Below are positions 2,749 to 15,834 of a DNA stretch of 32,000 nucleotides, piece by piece. This stretch comes from Edaphobacter aggregans. GTDB taxonomy: Bacteria; Acidobacteriota; Terriglobia; Terriglobales; Acidobacteriaceae. The stretch is taken from positions 5,820,001-5,852,000 of the forward strand of contig NZ_RSDW01000001.1 of NCBI RefSeq assembly GCF_003945235.1, given 5' to 3'. The notes below the pieces were generated by a model. The model had not been told where the DNA came from. It worked only from the letters and a program-made list of their open reading frames with translations, and made no database searches. The position numbers and the translations under genes are program-made. Position 1 is the first letter of the stretch. The number at the start of each line of letters is the position of its first letter.

Positions 2749-2825
2749 GGCCCGGTAGCTCAGTTGCATAGAGCAGCGCACTCCTAACGCGAAGGTCGCA
2801 GGTTGGACTCCTGCCCGGGCCACCA
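2749..2825 (+). tRNA. tRNA-Arg (anticodon CCU), CCA encoded
   Basis: Manual cloverleaf. Acceptor GGCCCGG/CCGGGCC, D stem GCTC/GAGC, anticodon loop CTCCTAA, variable AGGTC, T stem GCAGG/CCTGC, discriminator A, then CCA. Caveats: the anticodon stem has only 3 Watson-Crick pairs (27:43 and 31:39 mismatched), and the elbow pair is swapped (C19/G56). Confidence 0.8.
2806..2825 (+). repeat. attL-type core: last 20 nt of tRNA-Arg (GACTCCTGCCCGGGCCACCA)
   Basis: Exact 20/20 direct repeat with 7224-7243. Confidence 0.85.
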
Positions 2826-5152: not shown

Positions 5153-6130
5153 TTAACGCTGTGCTTGAAGTAGCACCGAATTGCGGTGGAAGTCGAGAAA
5201 TGTCCGTTGGCCTTCGCTGAACGCACCAACATTCACTGTCTGTTCAGTTTCAATTCCCATCCGCCGTAGGGATTCCCGATGGGCGACAGGCGAGATAATG
5301 AGCCTCCCGGCATCCTCGAAACTGATAAAACCTCGGTCAAAGAGATGATCGATGGATGGCGTCAGTAACAGTCCATTCTCTCCATTCAGCCTCTCTTCAT
5401 TATTTGAATCCCGCCACGGCTTGCAGTGGCTTGCGCGGAGATGTTCGAGCCTTTCCACCTTCGTCACTCTACAGAACCGCTCGATTCGCAATACCCGCTC
5501 TTTGAACAGCCCCTGACCTCGACGGGCAATGATGAGAGATTCACGGTCTGTCTCTGGAATATCCTCAGCTTCCTCGATCGTCTGTTCGAGGTGATGCTCC
5601 CACACTTCCATATCGGCTTTTTCCGCTGGGGGCCGGATCAGTGCGGGTTGCTGAGCCGATGCTTGGACGAGTTCTTCCGCCTGTCGCCCGATCAAGCCGA
5701 TGAGCACCTCGGCGAAATGCGCAGATAACTCAGTCAAATAGATTCCTTGATTTCCATTCCCTGAAGCTTGTAGAGGTGAGTATTTGCCGGGCAAAACCGC
5801 GCTGAGGACATCCATATGTTTCTTCGGTCGAACCTTATGTTGCATCTCGATAAAGTTCACACGGATTTTCCACCCGATCCGCTCCCAATTCATGCCCACG
5901 CCGCCAAATTCCTCGGGTCGAGGACTTTCATAACAATTGGAAAGGGCTATCCCAATCCCATAAATGAGCGTGTCGAAAAACGAGAAGACGAGGTCTCCGG
6001 GGGATACCTCTCGCATGGATTCATAAAAAGGATTGCGCCTGTCGCCTTGTGCGCGTTTAGGAGACCAGAGATACCCTCCGCTGATCTCCTGCCGATGCGT
6101 CTGGTTCTGATTCACCCACCAATAACGCAT
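5153..6130 (-). CDS. HNH nuclease (HNH_2 type) with an N-terminal reader-like domain; candidate modification-dependent (type IV-like) restriction enzyme
   Basis: The C-terminus RVTKVERLEHLRASHCKPWRDSNNEERLNGENGLLLTPSIDHLFDRGFISF is the HNH_2 pattern. The N-terminus MRYWWVNQNQTHRQEISGGYLWSPK...VSPGDLVFSF is a domain I recognise as recurrently fused to this nuclease; calling it a PUA/EVE-like base reader is inference. Homologues start at M-x-YWWVNQ, so I prefer the start at 6130 over 6205. Confidence 0.8.
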   Translation of the reverse strand: MRYWWVNQNQTHRQEISGGYLWSPKRAQGDRRNPFYESMREVSPGDLVFSFFDTLIYGIGIALSNCYESPRPEEFGGVGMNWERIGWKIRVNFIEMQHKVRPKKHMDVLSAVLPGKYSPLQASGNGNQGIYLTELSAHFAEVLIGLIGRQAEELVQASAQQPALIRPPAEKADMEVWEHHLEQTIEEAEDIPETDRESLIIARRGQGLFKERVLRIERFCRVTKVERLEHLRASHCKPWRDSNNEERLNGENGLLLTPSIDHLFDRGFISFEDAGRLIISPVAHRESLRRMGIETEQTVNVGAFSEGQRTFLDFHRNSVLLQAQR

Positions 6131-6205
6131 TTCGGCCTTTCTCATTAGCAGACAAATAAATTGGCCAAGAATATCAGGAGTCCCGTTATACGTGTTCGCT
6201 GTCAA

Positions 6206-7223: not shown

Positions 7224-7243
7224 GACTCCTGCCCGGGCCACCA
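7224..7243 (+). repeat. attR-type core: 20-nt direct copy of the tRNA-Arg 3' end
   Basis: GACTCCTGCCCGGGCCACCA is identical to 2806-2825. No tRNA body lies upstream of it. Confidence 0.85.
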
Positions 7244-7344: not shown

Positions 7345-7440
7345 TTATTTCTCAGTCGGCCGCAAGGCAAGCTCACCACCGATCTGCAGTCCTTGCAGGG
7401 CGGACAGCAAACGTCATACTTTATCGCGGGACATCTCTGA
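7345..7440 (+). repeat. Possible left half of a diverged copy of the ~160-bp repeat family, interrupted by IS copy 1
   Basis: Starts with GTCGGCC like copies A and B and contains a hairpin (CTGCAGTCCTTGCAG) at the position of GTCCACTTGGAC in copy A. Identity is otherwise low, so this is tentative. Confidence 0.3.
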
Positions 7441-7452
7441 TATGGAGTGACC

Positions 7453-7760
7453 GCGTCAACTCTGGGACATCTGTGGTTTGTAGTTTTCTTTTGTTTTTTC
7501 TCGAGGACAGAGCGAGCGGCAGCCGGGGCAGGTTGAGCGACGATTGATCAGTCTGATATTCGCGGGTCGGAACCGCATAATCATGATCCGTCGGGAGCTG
7601 CCTCTGACTGTTAGCGCGAGTCCGGGCGAGCCGGTCGCATAGGGCAAACGAGGATTCTCCTTCGTGCTTGCCTCGGCTGCTGCTGGCTCTGTGCTCGAAA
7701 TTGGTGACGAAGTTCATTTCCATTTTTTAGGAACGTTTTTCTTTCTGTCTTTCCTTTTTA
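7453..7760 (-). ncRNA. Candidate bridge/seek guide RNA of IS copy 1 (3' non-coding region)
   Basis: Contains an exact 14-mer of the reconstructed empty target (7602-7615), an 11/12 copy of the left target arm (7464-7475) and an 8-mer of the flank/IS junction (7552-7559). RNA ends and fold were not determined. Confidence 0.45.
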
Positions 7761-8888
7761 TCAGGCCGCGATCCGCTGCTTGGAAATAGCCTCTGCTCTG
7801 ATTCCAATGGCCCAGATAAAGCCCAGCAGTTCACGGGCAACTGCCGTGACTATCTTCCTCTGGTCCTTGCCGGCTGCACCCAGTTTCATATACCGCTTGT
7901 GCAGCCGGTGTTGCGCCTTCCACGCAATCTCTTTCGCCTCTTCGGAGATGCTCTCCTGTCGTCTGCGCAATCCGTACCAGATACAGGGTGGACGACGATA
8001 GCTCCATGCGGCTTCTATGACGATTCGGCGCAGGTGCGCGTTACCGGTCTTGGTGATGCCGCCACGCCTGGTTCGCCTGCCACTGGAATCCTCGCTGGGT
8101 ACAGCTCCGCAATAGCCCATCAGTTGTCGGGCACTGTCGAAGCGGGATACCTGACCCAACTCGGCAGCAATGGTCACAGCCGAGATATCTGCGATACCGC
8201 GCAGTGCCTGTAGATCGTTGATGACTTGTTGTAACGCGGGCGAGGCTAGCTTCACCGCCTCCGTGATGGCCTGCTCCAGACGCGCTACTCGTTCCCGCAT
8301 GTGCTCGACCTCGTGCAGATAGTCCTGCCGCGTGGACTCCTGAGCGATTTGTGTGAAACGTAGCTGCGCAACCCAGATCAGATAGGGACGTGTCCATGGC
8401 CGAACCCCGGACGGTGGACGCTGGCCTGAGCGAAGAAGAAACTTGCTCAGCCGATGCCGCGCTCGCATCTGATCTTGCTTGGCCGCTTCGCGGGCGCGCA
8501 CTAAATCCCGCAAGGCCTCAGAACCTTCATCCGGAACCCACACCGCCGTCAGATCTCCGGATCGATAACAGCGTGCCAACTTCTCAGCATCGCGCCGATC
8601 CGTCTTTACCCGATCACCCGCCTTTACCGGCACCAGCGTGGGTGCCACAACCTCGCACTGAATGCCCAGTTCCGTCAGCTGCCAGTACACGATGTAGCCC
8701 GTCGGTCCCGCCTCATAACAGGCTCGCAAGTTCTCTGCTGGGCCAAGCTTCCTGATCAGCTTGCGTATCGACTCGCTTCGGTTCGGAATCGTTCCCAGGC
8801 TCCGCACTTCGCCATCCAGCTCTGCAATCGCTACGGCAATCGTCTCGGCGTGGACATCCAAACCCAAAAATCGTAACTTCTCCTTCAT
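7761..8888 (-). CDS. IS110-family transposase (DEDD N-terminal domain plus Transposase_20 C-terminal domain)
   Basis: LGLDVHAETIAVAI...YEAGPTGY...VKTDRRDAEKLA...ITKTGNAHLRRIVIEAAWS is the typical IS110/IS1111 recombinase pattern. Confidence 0.93.
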   Translation of the reverse strand: MKEKLRFLGLDVHAETIAVAIAELDGEVRSLGTIPNRSESIRKLIRKLGPAENLRACYEAGPTGYIVYWQLTELGIQCEVVAPTLVPVKAGDRVKTDRRDAEKLARCYRSGDLTAVWVPDEGSEALRDLVRAREAAKQDQMRARHRLSKFLLRSGQRPPSGVRPWTRPYLIWVAQLRFTQIAQESTRQDYLHEVEHMRERVARLEQAITEAVKLASPALQQVINDLQALRGIADISAVTIAAELGQVSRFDSARQLMGYCGAVPSEDSSGRRTRRGGITKTGNAHLRRIVIEAAWSYRRPPCIWYGLRRRQESISEEAKEIAWKAQHRLHKRYMKLGAAGKDQRKIVTAVARELLGFIWAIGIRAEAISKQRIAA

Positions 8889-8982
8889 GACCGGCTCCCT
8901 TCCGCTTGTGGCTCTGAACTGCGTGTCCTGATAAACACACAGCCTAACCCACGATCAGCGCATCGGTGTCGGTCACTCCATA

Positions 8983-9090
8983 CTGACTGTTAGCAATAGT
9001 TGGACGGTCGAGCACTTGTCCGGAAAGCCGACTTTTCGTCCAAGTGGAAAGTCACCCACTGGAAATCAGTAAACACACTAGCGCGTTTTG
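8983..9090 (+). repeat. Right half of the repeat family (copy C), lying between the two IS elements
   Basis: ACTTTTCGTCCAAGTGGAAAGTCACCCACTGGAAATCAGTAAACAC closely matches 13440-13484 of copy A. The trailing ACTAGCGCGTTTTG resembles the A tail TGCGGCGTTTCT. Confidence 0.65.
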
Positions 9091-9105
9091 TATGAGCAGG
9101 TCACT

Positions 9106-9340
9106 GATGTCAAGGCTTTTTTCCTTATCAGGGTCTTTGCTTTTGCTGTTATTGCGTTGCTGTTGCTCTCCACCGGGTTTGTATTCGCACTCTGGTGAGC
9201 TGATCGTGATCTGAGCTCGGTGCCTGTTGGGGTTCGAGAGGAGAGTCGATGCTGCTATTTATCGGTCGGCCTCGATGGCCAAAACGCGCACGCAGTCATC
9301 GGAACACGGTGTCGACGCAACAAGTAAACATGATGATCTC
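9106..9340 (-). ncRNA. Candidate bridge/seek guide RNA of IS copy 2 (3' non-coding region)
   Basis: 9280-9289 CAAAACGCGC is the reverse complement of left flank 9081-9090. 9257-9264 ATTTATCG equals right flank 10467-10474. The two guide-like segments are 15 nt apart. Confidence 0.4.
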
Positions 9341-10426
9341 TCAGGCTGCTTCCGCGTGGAACGGGATGTAGAACTCTTGAGTGATCCAGAGGCGATGGAG
9401 CAAGACAGCCAGCTTCCGTGCTACAGCCACCACCGCCTTATTCTTAGCCTGCTTGCCGCCTCGGGCGGCCAGATGCAGGCCCCATTGTCGCAGTGCAGAG
9501 TCTCTTCCATGAGGTCGAAGGATGTGGTTGGCGCACTCAATCAGCAGGCTTCGAAGATAAGCGTTGCCTGCCTTGGTGATGCCGAGTTGCGGATCGCGTT
9601 CGCCTGACTGACTTCGTCTGGGCCGCAGGCCCAGATAGCAGCCCACGTCTCGACTACGTCCGAAGCGTTGCTTGTCGCCTAGCGTCAGGACGAACGTGAG
9701 AGCAGTGATATGACCGATGCCGTGGATGGTCAGCAGAGGCTGTGTCTCAGCATACTCAGTCTGAGTCATCCGTTGGATCTCCCGGTCGTACTGCTTGATC
9801 TTCAGCGTCATCGCCGCGATCTGTTCGAGCACCGGACCGAGTGCCAGCTGGAGTCCTGGCGGCATCGCGGCCTGGCCGCGCTGAGCAAAACACTTCGTGG
9901 ATGAGGCCGGCATACGATAGCCGCAGGCCTTCGTCAGTCCGCGCACGGCGTTCACAGCTGCGGTGCGAAGTCGAACGAGAAGCTCTCGCGCACGGATCAG
10001 GGTGAGAGCCTCTTGCTGTTCGACAGTGCGATGAGAGATCGGCCGAAGAATCTCTGGATCGAGACGCGCGTACCGGGCCAGCTTCTCTGCATCGACCTGG
10101 TCGCTCTTGCGATCACTGTGAGAAATGGCCCGGAGCTCGCGCACATTCGCTACGATCACTTCGTGACCGAGTTCCTGCAGTTGCTCGCTGATCCAGATCG
10201 AATGGACGCCGGCCTCCATCGCTACGCGTGTTGGAGGCAGATCCTTGAACCACTTCTCGATCGCCTTGGCTGTGGTTCGGAAGCGGCCTCGGTCAATGAC
10301 TTCGCCGTCCTGGTTGAGAGTGCAGTAATGGCTCCAGACATCGCCAAGGTCGATACCAATCGTGAGCTCGGTCCTGGCTTGCCTGCGTGGAACTTCCGCG
10401 ATGAGGTGCTGCGTCGGCTTCTTCAT
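9341..10426 (-). CDS. IS110-family transposase
   Basis: IGIDLGDVWSHYC...MEAGVHS...RKSDQVDAEKLA...ITKAGNAYLRSLLIECA shows the DEDD and Transposase_20 patterns. Confidence 0.93.
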   Translation of the reverse strand: MKKPTQHLIAEVPRRQARTELTIGIDLGDVWSHYCTLNQDGEVIDRGRFRTTAKAIEKWFKDLPPTRVAMEAGVHSIWISEQLQELGHEVIVANVRELRAISHSDRKSDQVDAEKLARYARLDPEILRPISHRTVEQQEALTLIRARELLVRLRTAAVNAVRGLTKACGYRMPASSTKCFAQRGQAAMPPGLQLALGPVLEQIAAMTLKIKQYDREIQRMTQTEYAETQPLLTIHGIGHITALTFVLTLGDKQRFGRSRDVGCYLGLRPRRSQSGERDPQLGITKAGNAYLRSLLIECANHILRPHGRDSALRQWGLHLAARGGKQAKNKAVVAVARKLAVLLHRLWITQEFYIPFHAEAA

Positions 10427-10603
10427 GGGATACAGTCTGCTCCCTCCGGAGTGACCTGCTCATCCCATTTATCGTTACTAGTCTTCGGCAATCAGTTCGT
10501 GGAGCAGGCAATAAGAGCTGGATGAGCGCTTTGTCCTGAAGTCGTCAAGTGAAGTCAACTTCTGTTTTGCCGAGACTCAGGCATTGGATCGGAGCTTCCA
10601 AAA

Positions 10604-13036: not shown

Positions 13037-13327
13037 ACGCCCCTCATTCCGTTTTGGTGTCCGGCGAGCGCCCGCTCTGCATTGGCAAAAGATAAGACGT
13101 TGGTGACCGCCCTTGTTCCCTCATTCATCCGTTGGACAATGGAATCGCAGCCCGGGTAGGTTAGAAACAATGCAATTGTATCTTTCCGCGACCCGCCTTG
13201 CGCTGAATTCGGGACAGCCTCGTAGGTGGCCACCAGCCATAGGGCAGGACCCCGGTGCCGACCGCAAATCGGTTTTCAATGGCATAGTCGCCGAGTCACT
13301 TATCGAGCCACCGATGAGTACTGATAT

Positions 13328-13484
13328 GTCGGCCAGTGTTTACAAATCCAGTCCACTTGGACGTAAACCGGCTATCCGGAACCCTGGTATCAGCAAGACC
13401 CGTCGGACGATGAGCCGCGGCAACTGTACGACTTGCCGAGTTTTCGTCCACGTGGAAAGTCACCCATTGGAAATCAGTTAACAC
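13328..13484 (+). repeat. Repeat family copy A (full length, 157 bp), MITE/REP-like with imperfect terminal inverted repeats
   Basis: The left arm GTGTTTAC...CCACTTGGACGTAAAC mirrors the reverse-complemented right arm GTGTTAAC...CCACGTGGACGAAAAC. The first 29 nt are identical to copy B and the right ~45 nt are near-identical to copy C. Confidence 0.75.
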
Positions 13485-13521
13485 TGCGGCGTTTCTCGGT
13501 ATCTATTTTTTGATCGCTTTT

Positions 13522-14501
<980 letters not shown>

Positions 14502-14722: not shown

Positions 14723-15598
14723 ATGCTCGCCGACTTGGCTACGTTAATTGGCAAAGCGATGGGAAACGCCTCACAAATGGCAATGCCAGTTGCTGGGCTT
14801 ACGCTCTACCCAAACACTGTTCCGACTGCCAAATCCTTGTACGTATGAGCCGAGTCTGCTTGTCATTCCACAAGGCCGCAAGCGCGTTGACCTAGGCAAG
14901 GAAAGCTATGTTTTCGGGGAAACCACGTTTCTACTGACATCGATCGAACTTCCGATCGTTAGCCATGTCTGCTCAGCCAGTGTCGAGAGGCCTTACCTCG
15001 CGTTCTTCTTCAAACTCGATATGGGGATGGTCGCGATGTTCTTCACTCCGACGAGGTGTCGATTCCCGCGCCGCCAGCTGGAACACGCGGGATGGTGCTG
15101 GGTGAGGCAACGGTAGAACTCCTTGCGCCGTGCTGCCGCATGGTTCAGCTTCTCGATGCGCCTCAGGATGTCCCGTTCTTTGGCAAGCTCCTCCAGCGAG
15201 AGATCATCTACCGACTCCTTCAGGGGACACAAGGAGATCGCCTGCGTTCCGTTGCTACACTGGCTGACCAAAACCATCGAACAGCAAAGGCGGTCAATTG
15301 GCTGCGTGAGAACTACGAGAAGACAGTGAACGTGGATGATCTTGCGTCGATGACCGGGATGAGTAGATCGACCCTCCACCATCACTTCCGCAGCCTCACA
15401 GCCATGAGTCCGCTCCAGTTTCAAAAACAGCTTCGGCTTCACGCTGCGCGTCAGAAGATGCTCACGTGGGAACTGGATGCCGCGAGTGCAGCCTTTGAGG
15501 TTGGGTATGAGAGTCCGAGTCAGTTCAATCGGGAGTACAAACGATTCTTCGGCCAACCGCCGATGCGCGATATTCACGCACTTCGGGCCTCCGGATAA
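14723..15598 (+). pseudogene. YqhC-like AraC-family regulator (AraC_N plus HTH_18) with two 1-nt frameshifts
   Basis: The frame-2 start gives MLADLATLIGKA...GLTLYPNTVPTA. It shifts to frame 3 near 14831-14833 (extra A) for NPCTYEPSLLVIPQGRKRV...ERPYLAFFFKLDMGMV. It returns to frame 2 near 15032 (missing C) for RDVLHSDEV...REIIYRLLQG...GYESPSQFNREYKRFFG. Confidence 0.8.
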
Positions 15599-15608
15599 GT
15601 AACGGGAA

Positions 15609-15688
15609 GTCGGCCAGTGTTTACAAATCCAGTCCACCTGCACGCAAAAACCGGCTATTGTCCGACATGACGCCTTTTCGTCCAAGTG
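15609..15688 (+). repeat. Repeat family copy B (80 bp, internally deleted or truncated)
   Basis: GTCGGCCAGTGTTTACAAATCCAGTCCAC is identical to the start of copy A, and it ends with TTTTCGTCCAAGTG as in copy C. It begins 10 nt after the AraC stop. Confidence 0.7.
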
Positions 15689-15834
15689 ACGAGAAGGGCG
15701 TCTCCCGGTACCTAACCTGTATGGGCTCTCGTTTTCCGGTGAGTGCAGCGCTTCCTATTCGCGGCGCTCGGTCACCGGCTGTTTCTGAAGTGATTAGCGC
15801 CCGAAACCAAGAGCTCTTGTGACCGATAAGTCAA

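What the first reader, a model, noticed from the sequence alone, without database searches (positions are those of the whole stretch)
9081..10474. Second, different IS110-family element with two flank-matching guide-like segments 15 nt apart in its 3' NCR
Seen in sequence:
- Perfect 14-bp inverted repeats at 9092-9105 and 10450-10463 bound a 1.37-kb element with a 37-nt 5' NCR and a 249-nt 3' NCR.
- Inside the 3' NCR, CAAAACGCGC (9280-9289) is the reverse complement of the left flank GCGCGTTTTG (9081-9090).
- ATTTATCG (9257-9264) equals the right flank 10467-10474.
- One guide is in direct and one in inverted sense. This is the geometry expected if the two guides pair with opposite strands on either side of a core (here the ~4 nt T/CCC between the arms).

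These matches are shorter than in copy 1, so the evidence is weaker taken alone. The parallel with copy 1 strengthens it.
Basis: partly seen in the sequence, partly recalled or inferred. Interest (0 to 1): 0.7.

Follow-up and report, generated by a model that had tools for sequence, protein, structure and literature searches.

The report
RNA-guided IS1111-type insertion sequence, confirmed
This is an intact jumping gene of the IS110/IS1111 family that carries its own guide ("bridge" or "seek") RNA downstream of its transposase; the RNA's two short guides match the DNA on each side of the insertion, a mechanism described in 2024, so it is a well-documented new member and not a new kind of system.

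Summary
Together they are rare by chance: 1 of 3000 shuffles reproduces both.

The ORF at 9341-10426(-) is an IS110-family DEDD transposase. The two flank-matching segments lie on opposite sides of one internal loop of a conserved stem-loop in the 3' non-coding region. This is the layout of a target-binding loop.

In 80 relatives from Acidobacteriaceae genomes, both loop sides change together with the flanks of each copy. The stems stay constant. No class-level permutation out of 20000 reaches the observed agreement, for either guide.

Uninterrupted sites, one of them in this window at 13487-13500, fix the anatomy. The target is LT-AA-RT. The element spans 9089-10468 (1380 bp). It has 5-nt and 3-nt extensions outside the 14-bp subterminal repeats and an AA core copy on each side.

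A second structured domain carries a 7-nt match to the right end plus core. One base of it covaries with that end.

Verdict: interpretation supported. This is a new member of a known kind (IS1111 group, seekRNA/bridge RNA). RNA expression and binding are inferred, not shown.

The parts
9081..9086 (-). Right target half (RT; ACGCGC in transposase orientation). It is complementary to the 5' loop guide.
9087..9088 (-). Core AA copy at the right junction.
   Evidence: Flank joining works best when 9 nt are removed. The reconstructed site aligns without a gap to the uninterrupted sites.
9089..9091 (-). Right-end terminal extension ACA, outside the subterminal repeat. Relatives have AGA.
9092..9105 (-). 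Right subterminal inverted repeat (14 bp).
   Evidence: Its sequence variants covary with the left repeat in relatives.
9108..9113 (-). Outward-facing TTGACA (-35-like). It lies 17 nt from CAAAAT, a hexamer that exists only when the ends are joined in a circle. This is an inferred junction promoter.
   Evidence: Sequence and coordinates. TTGAC is conserved in the relatives. The concept is from PMC11187229. Inference only.
9163..9305 (-). Structured RNA region (bridge/seekRNA-like). It holds the target-binding stem-loop followed by a second multi-stem domain.
   Evidence: Covariance model R1 gives a single window hit, 143.8 bits, E 5e-32. 98.5% of cells are paired and 6 pairs have compensatory changes.
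9247..9301 (-). Target-binding stem-loop. The outer stem is CGAUGACUGC (9292-9301) with GCAGCAUCG (9247-9255). The distal hairpin is at 9268-9280.
9280..9290 (-). 5' loop guide (T). UGCGCGUUUU plus the first hairpin G pairs with the top strand of the right junction, CAAAACGCGC.
   Evidence: Class permutation gave 0/20000. Position profile.
9256..9267 (-). 3' loop guide (B). GACCGAUAAAUA is identical to the left junction over CGATAAAT, so it pairs with the bottom strand.
9168..9245 (-). Second domain (donor-binding candidate). The outer stem is 9242-9245 with 9168-9171. Inner stems lie within 9188-9222. The 3' loop AUACAAA (9178-9184) matches the right end plus core.
   Evidence: The loop base C/G matches the end base C/G: 14 C/C, 52 G/G, 1 exception.
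9341..10426 (-). Transposase, 361 aa, DEDD/RuvC-like N-terminal domain plus PF02371 C-terminal domain. It carries the GLRPRRSQSG motif.
10427..10449 (-). Interior part of the 42-nt 5' non-coding region (10427-10468), between the left subterminal repeat and the ATG.
10450..10463 (-). Left subterminal inverted repeat (14 bp).
10464..10468 (-). Left-end terminal extension ATGGG.
10469..10470 (-). Core AA copy at the left junction.
10471..10477 (-). Left target half (LT; TAACGAT). The consensus at other copies is TACCGAT.
13487..13500 (-). Uninterrupted paralogous site TACCGAG-AA-ACGCCG next to the 65-nt repeat. It has 3 mismatches to the consensus target ACCGATAAACGCGC.

Best explanation
The element at 9089-10468 on the minus strand is an intact and apparently recently active IS1111-group insertion sequence of the IS110 family.

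Shown here:
- It encodes a DEDD transposase.
- Its 252-nt 3' non-coding region holds a conserved two-domain structure.
- The first domain is a stem-loop whose internal loop carries two guides. The 5' side (UGCGCGUUUU) is complementary to core AA plus the 6 nt to the right of the insertion point. The 3' side (..CCGAUAA..) is identical to the 5 nt to the left plus the core, so it would pair with the other strand. The two read-outs overlap at the AA core and specify a target of about 13 bp, LT-AA-RT.
- That target lies about 15 bp inside the end of a repeated intergenic unit of Acidobacteriaceae genomes.
- Both guides run 1-2 nt past the core into the element's own terminal extensions, so they match the integrated junctions better than the naive target.
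- The second domain carries AUACAAA, which matches the right end plus core.

Inferred from published work on relatives:
- The region is transcribed with the transposase mRNA from a promoter assembled when the ends join in a circle (TTGACA, 17 nt, CAAAAT).
- The RNA is bound by the transposase.
- It guides recombination between the circle junction ...CTCATACA-AA-ATGGGATGAG... and the target at the AA core.
- The better match to integrated junctions fits the published requirement for matching flanks during excision.
For: Protein.
- PF01548 and PF02371.
- NCBIfam NF033542 'IS110 family RNA-guided transposase', 242 bits against a cut-off of 140.
- Catalytic positions: E71, D109, D112, S274 and G275 are invariant in the family alignment and D26 is nearly invariant. 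They align with ISCro4.

Structure.
- The two matches flank a GGCC-loop-GGCC hairpin inside a closed stem, in both folds.
- In 61 distinct relatives 98.5% of cells are paired, against 31-42% when partners are slid, and 6 pairs show compensatory changes.

Guide-flank covariation.
- There are 20 classes of the 5' guide and 23 of the 3' guide. Examples: AGCCGACUUC with GAAAGTCGGCT, UGUCGGGUUG with GAAACCCGAC, AGUCGCAUUU with GAAATGCGACT, GACCCAAAACUG with TTCCCAAAACTG, GACCUUCAAAUG with TCCTTCAAATG.
- Class-level permutation: 91 matches against 54.3 +/- 6.5 for the 5' guide and 112 against 80.5 +/- 4.2 for the 3' guide. Neither was reached in 20000 permutations.
- The per-position footprint is 5 nt + AA + 6 nt.

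Site specificity.
- Ten metagenome contigs carry the element with 0 mismatches over up to 1380 bp.
- Their outer flanks differ, but all share ..TA[A/C]CGA[T/C]AA | AACGC[G/T]CT...

Empty sites. Removing 9087-10468 gives a sequence that aligns without a gap to window 13400-13545(-) and to L066.

Donor side. The loop base C or G tracks the right-end extension ACA or AGA: 14 C/C and 52 G/G.

Literature.
- IS1111 elements have subterminal repeats and a 3' NCR seekRNA, with the top-strand match 5' of the bottom-strand match and the two matches overlapping in the target.
- Natural reprogramming between relatives is known, and so is a junction promoter (PMC11187229).
- Bridge RNAs were predicted in the right end of 93% of IS1111 elements, often with donor-binding bases in a multi-loop (PMC11208160).
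Against: - There is no direct evidence here that the region is transcribed or bound by the protein.
- The promoter scan found no sigma-70-like site in the linear copy.
- The folding energy of the NCR is not unusual (z = -0.9 and -0.01).
- The outer stem of the target loop is invariant, so it offers no covariation.
- No Rfam family matches, even at E <= 1.
- The 5' side of the second loop has only a CCCA complement to the left-end TGGG and shows no covariation, so donor recognition is only half explained.
- The C/G covariation on the donor side may reflect one or two evolutionary events only.
- Flank combinations in metagenome contigs may be assembly chimeras across a repeated element.
- In this window the left-half match is short: CGAT plus the core.
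Confidence: 0.9

Rival explanations
1. The two short matches between the NCR and the flanks are coincidence, and the transposase protein alone recognises the target.
For: The 8-nt match alone occurs in 157 of 3000 shuffles. The NCR folding energy is not exceptional.
Against: Both matches together occur in 1 of 3000 shuffles. In relatives both segments change in step with their own flanks while the stems stay fixed, and no permutation out of 20000 reaches the observed agreement for either guide.
Confidence: 0.01
2. The guide segments act as single-stranded DNA within the element and not as RNA. They would pair DNA-to-DNA with the target, as the subterminal guide sequences of IS200/IS605 elements do.
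For: Sequence covariation cannot by itself tell an RNA guide from a DNA guide. No transcript is shown here.
Against: In experimentally studied IS1111 and IS110 relatives the NCR-derived RNA co-purifies with the transposase and is sufficient when supplied in trans (PMC11187229). IS621 was solved in complex with its RNA (PMC11208158, abstract). NCBIfam places this protein in the RNA-guided family. The guides lie about 165-200 nt inside the element, not at a cleavage site.
Confidence: 0.04
3. The NCR segments are a captured copy of the target, a relic or decoy picked up by imprecise excision, or they belong to a terminator or regulatory hairpin with no role in target choice.
For: The region lies just downstream of the transposase stop codon, where a terminator might be expected.
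Against: The two halves are not a contiguous copy of the target. They are in opposite senses, separated by a conserved hairpin, and enclosed by an invariant stem. There is no T-run terminator. A relic would not be re-matched to new targets in more than 20 lineages.
Confidence: 0.03

Closest known systems
IS1111-family elements with a 3' seekRNA (ISEc11, ISKpn4, ISPa11, ISPst6; Siddiquee et al. 2024, PMC11187229)
   Same: It has subterminal inverted repeats with short terminal extensions, a short 5' NCR and a long 3' NCR. Its stem-loop carries the top-strand match 5' of the bottom-strand match, and the two matches overlap in a target of about 13 bp. The guides also match the flanks of the integrated copy. 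Relatives are naturally re-targeted by changes confined to the loop. An outward -35 lies at the right end. The transposase has the GL-P----SG motif.
   Different: The transposase is 361 aa, against the usual 330-350, and is at most 36% identical to any plasmid-borne IS110-family protein. The host range is Acidobacteriaceae. The core is AA. RNA production and binding were not tested here.
IS621 bridge RNA (IS110 group; Durrant et al. 2024, PMC11208160; Hiraizumi et al. 2024, PMC11208158)
   Same: It encodes a DEDD recombinase. One internal loop reads the two target halves on opposite strands around a dinucleotide core. A second domain reads the donor ends. Integration is site-specific and leaves a core copy on each side.
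   Different: In IS621 the RNA is in the 5' (left-end) NCR, the guide order is mirrored, the subterminal repeats are only 2-3 bp, and the core is CT. Sequence similarity to the IS621 protein is limited to the C-terminal domain (E 6.6e-8). Here the donor domain is multi-stemmed and only its 3' side is explained.
[quoted passage not shown]
   Same: The protein is 30% identical over residues 23-299. Both have subterminal repeats with extensions. Both insert at a fixed position a few bp inside the end of another repeated element.
   Different: The target differs: here it is an Acidobacteriaceae intergenic repeat unit, not a transposon end. The guide sequences also differ.
ISPpu9, ISPpu10 and ISPa11 (IS110/IS1111 elements that insert into REP sequences)
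   Same: The target is a short site within a multicopy, partly palindromic intergenic repeat of the host.
   Different: The repeat here is a longer unit of about 80 nt, paired in inverted orientation at 13306-13512, and is unrelated in sequence to Pseudomonas REPs. This comparison rests on the literature abstract and on my own knowledge.

Membership tests
IS110 family (DEDD transposase insertion sequences) | Transposase with an N-terminal DEDD/RuvC-like domain (PF01548) and a C-terminal PF02371 domain. | tested here: met
   PF01548 E 2.6e-17 and PF02371 E 5.2e-21. NF033542 scores 242 bits against a cut-off of 140.
IS110 family (DEDD transposase insertion sequences) | Catalytic D-E-D-D residues and the conserved SG in the C-terminal domain. 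| tested here: met
   E71, D109, D112, S274 and G275 are invariant and D26 is nearly invariant in alignment A1. IGIDLG, AMEAG and KSDQVDAEKLA align with the ISCro4 motifs. The assignment is by alignment, not by structure.
IS110 family (DEDD transposase insertion sequences) | Site-specific insertion with at most a very short repeated core at the junctions. | tested here: met
   Copies with different outer flanks share the same ~13-bp site. AA is present at both junctions and once in the empty sites.
IS1111 group | Subterminal inverted repeats of 7-17 bp with terminal extensions beyond them. | tested here: met
   The repeats are 14 bp and perfect. The extensions are 5 nt (ATGGG) and 3 nt (ACA).
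IS1111 group | The longer non-coding region lies downstream of the transposase gene. | tested here: met
   The 3' NCR is 252 nt and the 5' NCR is 42 nt.
IS1111 group | C-terminal motif GL-P----S(T)G. | tested here: met
   GLRPRRSQSG is in the translation. The motif definition is from PMC11187229.
IS1111 group | Transposase clusters phylogenetically with IS1111-family transposases. | tested here: inconclusive
   It is 30% identical to IS4321/IS5075 over 77% of its length, whereas IS621 aligns only over the C-terminal domain. No tree was built, ISfinder is not available, and the two comparisons used different search methods.
Bridge RNA / seekRNA | An internal loop of a stem-loop in the NCR carries two segments that match opposite strands of the two target halves and overlap at the core. 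| tested here: met
Bridge RNA / seekRNA | Guide and target covary among relatives (programmability). | tested here: met
   The class-level permutation was reached 0 times in 20000 for each guide.
Bridge RNA / seekRNA | IS1111-type order: the top-strand match is 5' of the bottom-strand match. | tested here: met
   The 5' loop side is complementary to the top strand on the right. The 3' loop side is identical to the top strand on the left.
Bridge RNA / seekRNA | A second loop reads both donor ends. | tested here: inconclusive
   The 3' side AUACAAA matches the right end plus core, and one base covaries. The 5' side offers only CCCA against TGGG, with no covariation.
Bridge RNA / seekRNA | The RNA is expressed and bound by the transposase. 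| not testable with these tools
   No transcript or binding data are available.
Bridge RNA / seekRNA | Match to a curated covariance model. | tested here: inconclusive
   Rfam 15 gives no hit at the gathering threshold or at E <= 1. I could not tell whether Rfam holds an IS1111 bridge-RNA model. The covariance models of Durrant et al. are not available here.

The most novel reading that the evidence does not exclude
This Acidobacteriaceae lineage is an unusually rich natural re-targeting series. At least 20 right-half guide classes and 23 left-half guide classes track sequence variants of one host repeat family.

Its RNA may also recognise DNA in a way that differs from IS621. Each target guide runs 1-2 nt past the AA core into the element's own terminal extension, so one loop reads both the naive target and the integrated junctions. 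Only the right donor end appears to be RNA-read. The left end would then be recognised through the 14-bp subterminal repeat, either by protein or by the repeat's complement in a longer transcript.

If this is right, it is a distinct donor-recognition variant, and the lineage is a ready-made data set for specificity rules.
Probability: 0.25. Interest if true: 0.45.

Novelty: new member of a known kind. Interest (0 to 1): 0.3.

Why it matters
The result confirms, from sequence alone, that the RNA-guided targeting logic described in 2024 for a few proteobacterial IS1111 and IS110 elements also operates in a distant Acidobacteriaceae lineage.

It also yields exact element boundaries, the core and the guide footprint (5 + 2 + 6 nt).

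The many natural guide/target pairs could help define pairing rules for engineering bridge or seek recombinases.

For genome annotation, it explains why this element and its relatives sit at one position of a host intergenic repeat. The transposon mechanism itself is already known.

Tried and rejected
They are probably chance matches. This used the only metagenome scan, and the pattern was wrong because the halves overlap at AA.
- Exact-protein look-ups of the neighbouring ADOP permease and of the copy 1 transposase, meant to find an IS-free allele or further copies, found nothing on record.
- A fuzzy-regex search for joined flanks timed out. It was replaced by blastn-short.
- I searched for a 5' donor guide complementary to AA-ATGGGATGAG in the second loop. 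Only CCCA fits, there is no covariation with left-end variants, and the partial fits overlap the outer stem, so I rejected them.
- A core of AAA fits this copy but not all lineages. AA is the only universal solution.
- The RNAalifold mini-hairpin at alignment columns 126-133 was replaced by a 3-bp stem (91-93 with 126-128) that has one compensatory change.
- Right ends of L032, L064 and L071 were mis-parsed by my regular expression, which hit CTCATA-like strings inside the second loop. L032 and L071 were excluded from the position profile. All three remained in the permutation test, where they lower the observed score, so that test is conservative.
Full report
**Observation.**
- The 14-bp perfect inverted repeat is at 9092-9105 and 10450-10463.
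- GCGCGTTTTG (9081-9090) is the reverse complement of 9280-9289.
- ATTTATCG (9257-9264) equals 10467-10474.

I shuffled the 235-nt NCR 3000 times, preserving dinucleotides. The 10-nt match recurs in 10 shuffles, the 8-nt match in 157, and both together in 1. The pair is therefore unlikely by chance, although the 8-mer alone is weak.

**What is encoded.** The ORF 9341-10426(-) is 361 aa. It has PF01548 (DEDD_Tnp_IS110) and PF02371. It scores 242 bits on NCBIfam NF033542, 'IS110 family RNA-guided transposase', against a cut-off of 140. Its only relatives with solved structures are the ISCro4 and IS621 transposases. In a family alignment E71, D109, D112, S274 and G275 are invariant and D26 is nearly so. 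The protein carries GLRPRRSQSG, the GL-P----SG motif given for IS1111-family transposases (PMC11187229). It is 30% identical to IS4321/IS5075 over residues 23-299 and at most 36% identical to any plasmid-borne relative. The neighbouring ORF 7761-8888(-) is a second, different IS110-family transposase.

**Where the matches sit.** Read in the transposase sense, the NCR folds so that the two matches lie on opposite sides of one internal loop. The layout is:
- outer stem CGAUGACUGC with GCAGCAUCG;
- 5' side UGCGCGUUUU;
- distal hairpin GGCC-AUCGA-GGCC;
- 3' side GACCGAUAAAUA.

This explains the 15-nt spacing. The folding energy is not exceptional (z = -0.9 and -0.01), so the fold alone proves nothing.

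**Other copies.** Ten metagenome contigs encode the identical protein. They carry the element with no mismatch over up to 1380 bp. Their outer flanks fall into at least four left and several right types, but all share ..TA[A/C]CGA[T/C]AAATGG | element | CAAA(A)CGC[G/T]CT... The element is therefore site-specific and probably recently active. One caveat applies: flank combinations in metagenome assemblies can be chimeric.

**Covariation.**
- A genome scan gave 80 relatives at 63-91% protein identity, all from Acidobacteriaceae: Acidicapsa, Edaphobacter, Granulicella, Tunturiibacter and uncultured genomes.
- All that keep the 3' NCR keep the same stem-loop. The stems are constant and the two loop sides are variable.
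- The loop sides follow the flanks of each copy. AGCCGACUUC goes with GAAAGTCGGCT, UGUCGGGUUG with GAAACCCGAC, CACGGGGUUG with GAAACCCCGT, and AGUCGCAUUU with GAAATGCGACT. On the other side, GACCCAAAACUG goes with TTCCCAAAACTG, GAAACAGAAAUG with TTAACAGAAATG, and GACCUUCAAAUG with TCCTTCAAATG.
- I took one consensus flank per guide class (20 classes for the 5' guide, 23 for the 3' guide) and scored only the 7 variable positions.
- Cognate pairs give 91 and 112 matches. Permuted pairs give 54.3 +/- 6.5 and 80.5 +/- 4.2. No permutation out of 20000 reaches the observed value for either guide.
- The per-position profile defines the footprint as 5 nt left, AA, and 6 nt right.

**RNA structure.** On 61 distinct sequences 98.5% of cells are paired, against 31-42% when partners are slid. 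Six pairs show compensatory changes, in the distal hairpin and in the second domain. The outer stem of the first loop is invariant, so it is uninformative. A covariance model built from this alignment hits the window once, at 9163-9305(-), with 143.8 bits. It finds nothing in copy 1. Rfam has no match even at E <= 1.

**Termini, core and empty site.**
- I joined left and right flanks with variable trimming and searched all fetched DNA. Matches appeared only when 9 nt in total are removed.
- The hits are uninterrupted sites such as L066 ..GGTAACGAG-AA-ACGCGCTACTGTTTACTGATTTCCAGTGGGTGAC.., from the Tunturiibacter gelidiferens chromosome.
- The window holds one as well, at 13487-13500(-): TACCGAG-AA-ACGCCGCA, next to the 65-nt repeat 13420-13484, which is 83% identical to 9012-9076.
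- Deleting 9087-10468 gives a sequence that aligns without a gap across the junction to both sites.

The anatomy that holds across all lineages is:
- a left extension NTGGG (5 nt) and the 14-bp repeat;
- the body of the element;
- the 14-bp repeat and a right extension A[C/G]A (3 nt);
- AA on both sides of the element and once in empty sites.

In window coordinates the features are:

| Feature | Coordinates |
|---|---|
| Right target half | 9081-9086 |
| Core copy | 9087-9088 |
| Element | 9089-10468 |
| Core copy | 10469-10470 |
| Left target half | 10471 onward |

Both of its 'flank' matches include 2 nt of element end. Both guides run 1-2 nt past the core into the element's own extensions. 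They therefore fit the integrated junctions (10 and 8 nt) better than the naive target (8 and 7 nt). This fits the published finding that IS1111 seekRNAs must also match the flanks of the donor copy for excision, and that the two matches overlap in the target (PMC11187229).

**Donor side.** Downstream of the first stem-loop lies a second, multi-stem domain (9168-9245). Its 3' loop reads GAAUACAAAC, and AUACAAA equals the right-end extension plus core. Relatives with the extension AGA have AUAGAAA. The tally is 14 C/C, 52 G/G and one exception, which may reflect only one or two evolutionary events. Its 5' loop carries a nearly invariant ACCCCAA. Its CCCA could pair with the TGGG of the left extension, but nothing covaries. 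Durrant et al. note that many IS1111 bridge RNAs place donor-binding bases in a multi-loop (PMC11208160). Donor recognition is therefore only half explained here.

**Expression (inferred).** The linear copy has no sigma-70-like promoter. A perfect TTGACA at 9108-9113(-), conserved as TTGAC in relatives, lies 17 nt from CAAAAT, a hexamer formed only when the ends are joined. In the integrated copy that hexamer reads CAAAAC. This agrees with the junction promoter proposed to co-transcribe the transposase and the long seekRNA.

**Context.**
- The target lies about 15 bp inside the end of an intergenic repeat unit of about 80 nt.
- Two units in inverted orientation form a palindromic block at 13306-13512.
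- Another unit starts at 15587.
- The variable hexamer of these units (ACGCGC, ACGCCG, GTCGGC, CCCGAC and others) corresponds to the right-half guide classes of the different lineages.
- The window's units at 13313 and 15594 (ATGTCGGCC and GAAGTCGGCC) resemble targets of a sister lineage and are unoccupied.
- The adjacent gene is an ADOP-family permease, which is consistent with an acidobacterial genome.

**Comparison and verdict.** Every feature tested matches the IS1111 group of the IS110 family and its seekRNA/bridge RNA as described in 2024. These features are the subterminal repeats with extensions, the long 3' NCR, the motif, the guide order, the overlap at a dinucleotide core, the natural re-targeting and the junction promoter. 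Three things remain untested: transcription, protein binding, and phylogenetic placement against ISfinder references. It is a new member of a known kind, not a new mechanism. Its added value is the precise anatomy and a large natural series of guide/target pairs.

Noticed in passing
window 7438-8994: Copy 1 is another IS1111-type element, with the transposase at 7761-8888(-). It has a 13-bp inverted repeat TATGGAGTGACCG at 7441-7453 and 8970-8982. A 12-nt segment of its 3' NCR (7604-7615, CTGACTGTTAGC) is identical to the flank at 8983-8994. The covariance model of copy 2's RNA does not hit it, so its RNA belongs to a different subfamily. Its exact protein is not on record elsewhere.
   Followed up: partly
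window 2749-2825 and 7224-7243: The last 20 nt of a tRNA gene (2806-2825) are repeated exactly at 7224-7243. They bracket a 4.4-kb segment that encodes an HNH_2-domain protein (5153-6205) and an unassigned 267-aa ORF. It looks like an integrated island with att-like repeats, ending just before copy 1. No integrase was identified among the ORFs tested.
   Followed up: partly
window 13306-13512, 15587-15690, 9005-9088: This is a host intergenic repeat family. Units of about 80 nt share ..TA.CGA.AA-(variable 6 nt)-..AGTGTTTAC..CCAC.TGGACG.AAA..CGGC. Two units in inverted orientation form a palindromic block at 13306-13512. The IS family inserts at a fixed point about 15 bp inside the outer end of a unit, much as IS4321/IS5075 insert into transposon terminal repeats. 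The nature of the repeat (MITE, REP-like or regulatory) is unknown.
   Followed up: partly
window 13316-13340 and 15597-15620: These are unoccupied repeat units with ..GATATGTCGGCC.. and ..GGGAAGTCGGCC... They resemble the targets of the sister lineage, whose guide is AGCCGACUUC (L016-L021). That lineage is absent from this window.
   Followed up: no
window 13522-14202: The aldo/keto reductase ORF matches only profile positions 94-289 of 291. It is either truncated at the N-terminus or its start is mis-called. It abuts the palindromic repeat block.
   Followed up: no
L036 and L046 (left ends): Two relatives have GGGAGCAGGTC in place of ATGAGCAGGTC at the left repeat. Their left flank (..GCATTTTCGA) does not resemble the target. 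These copies may be rearranged or decayed.
   Followed up: no
L028-L048 lineage, left junctions: Position 10 of the 3' guide is C in this lineage, while the left junction has A there in nearly all copies. This is a systematic mismatch. The C equals the first base of the right target half (CCCGAC), so this position may read the naive target and not the junction.
   Followed up: partly
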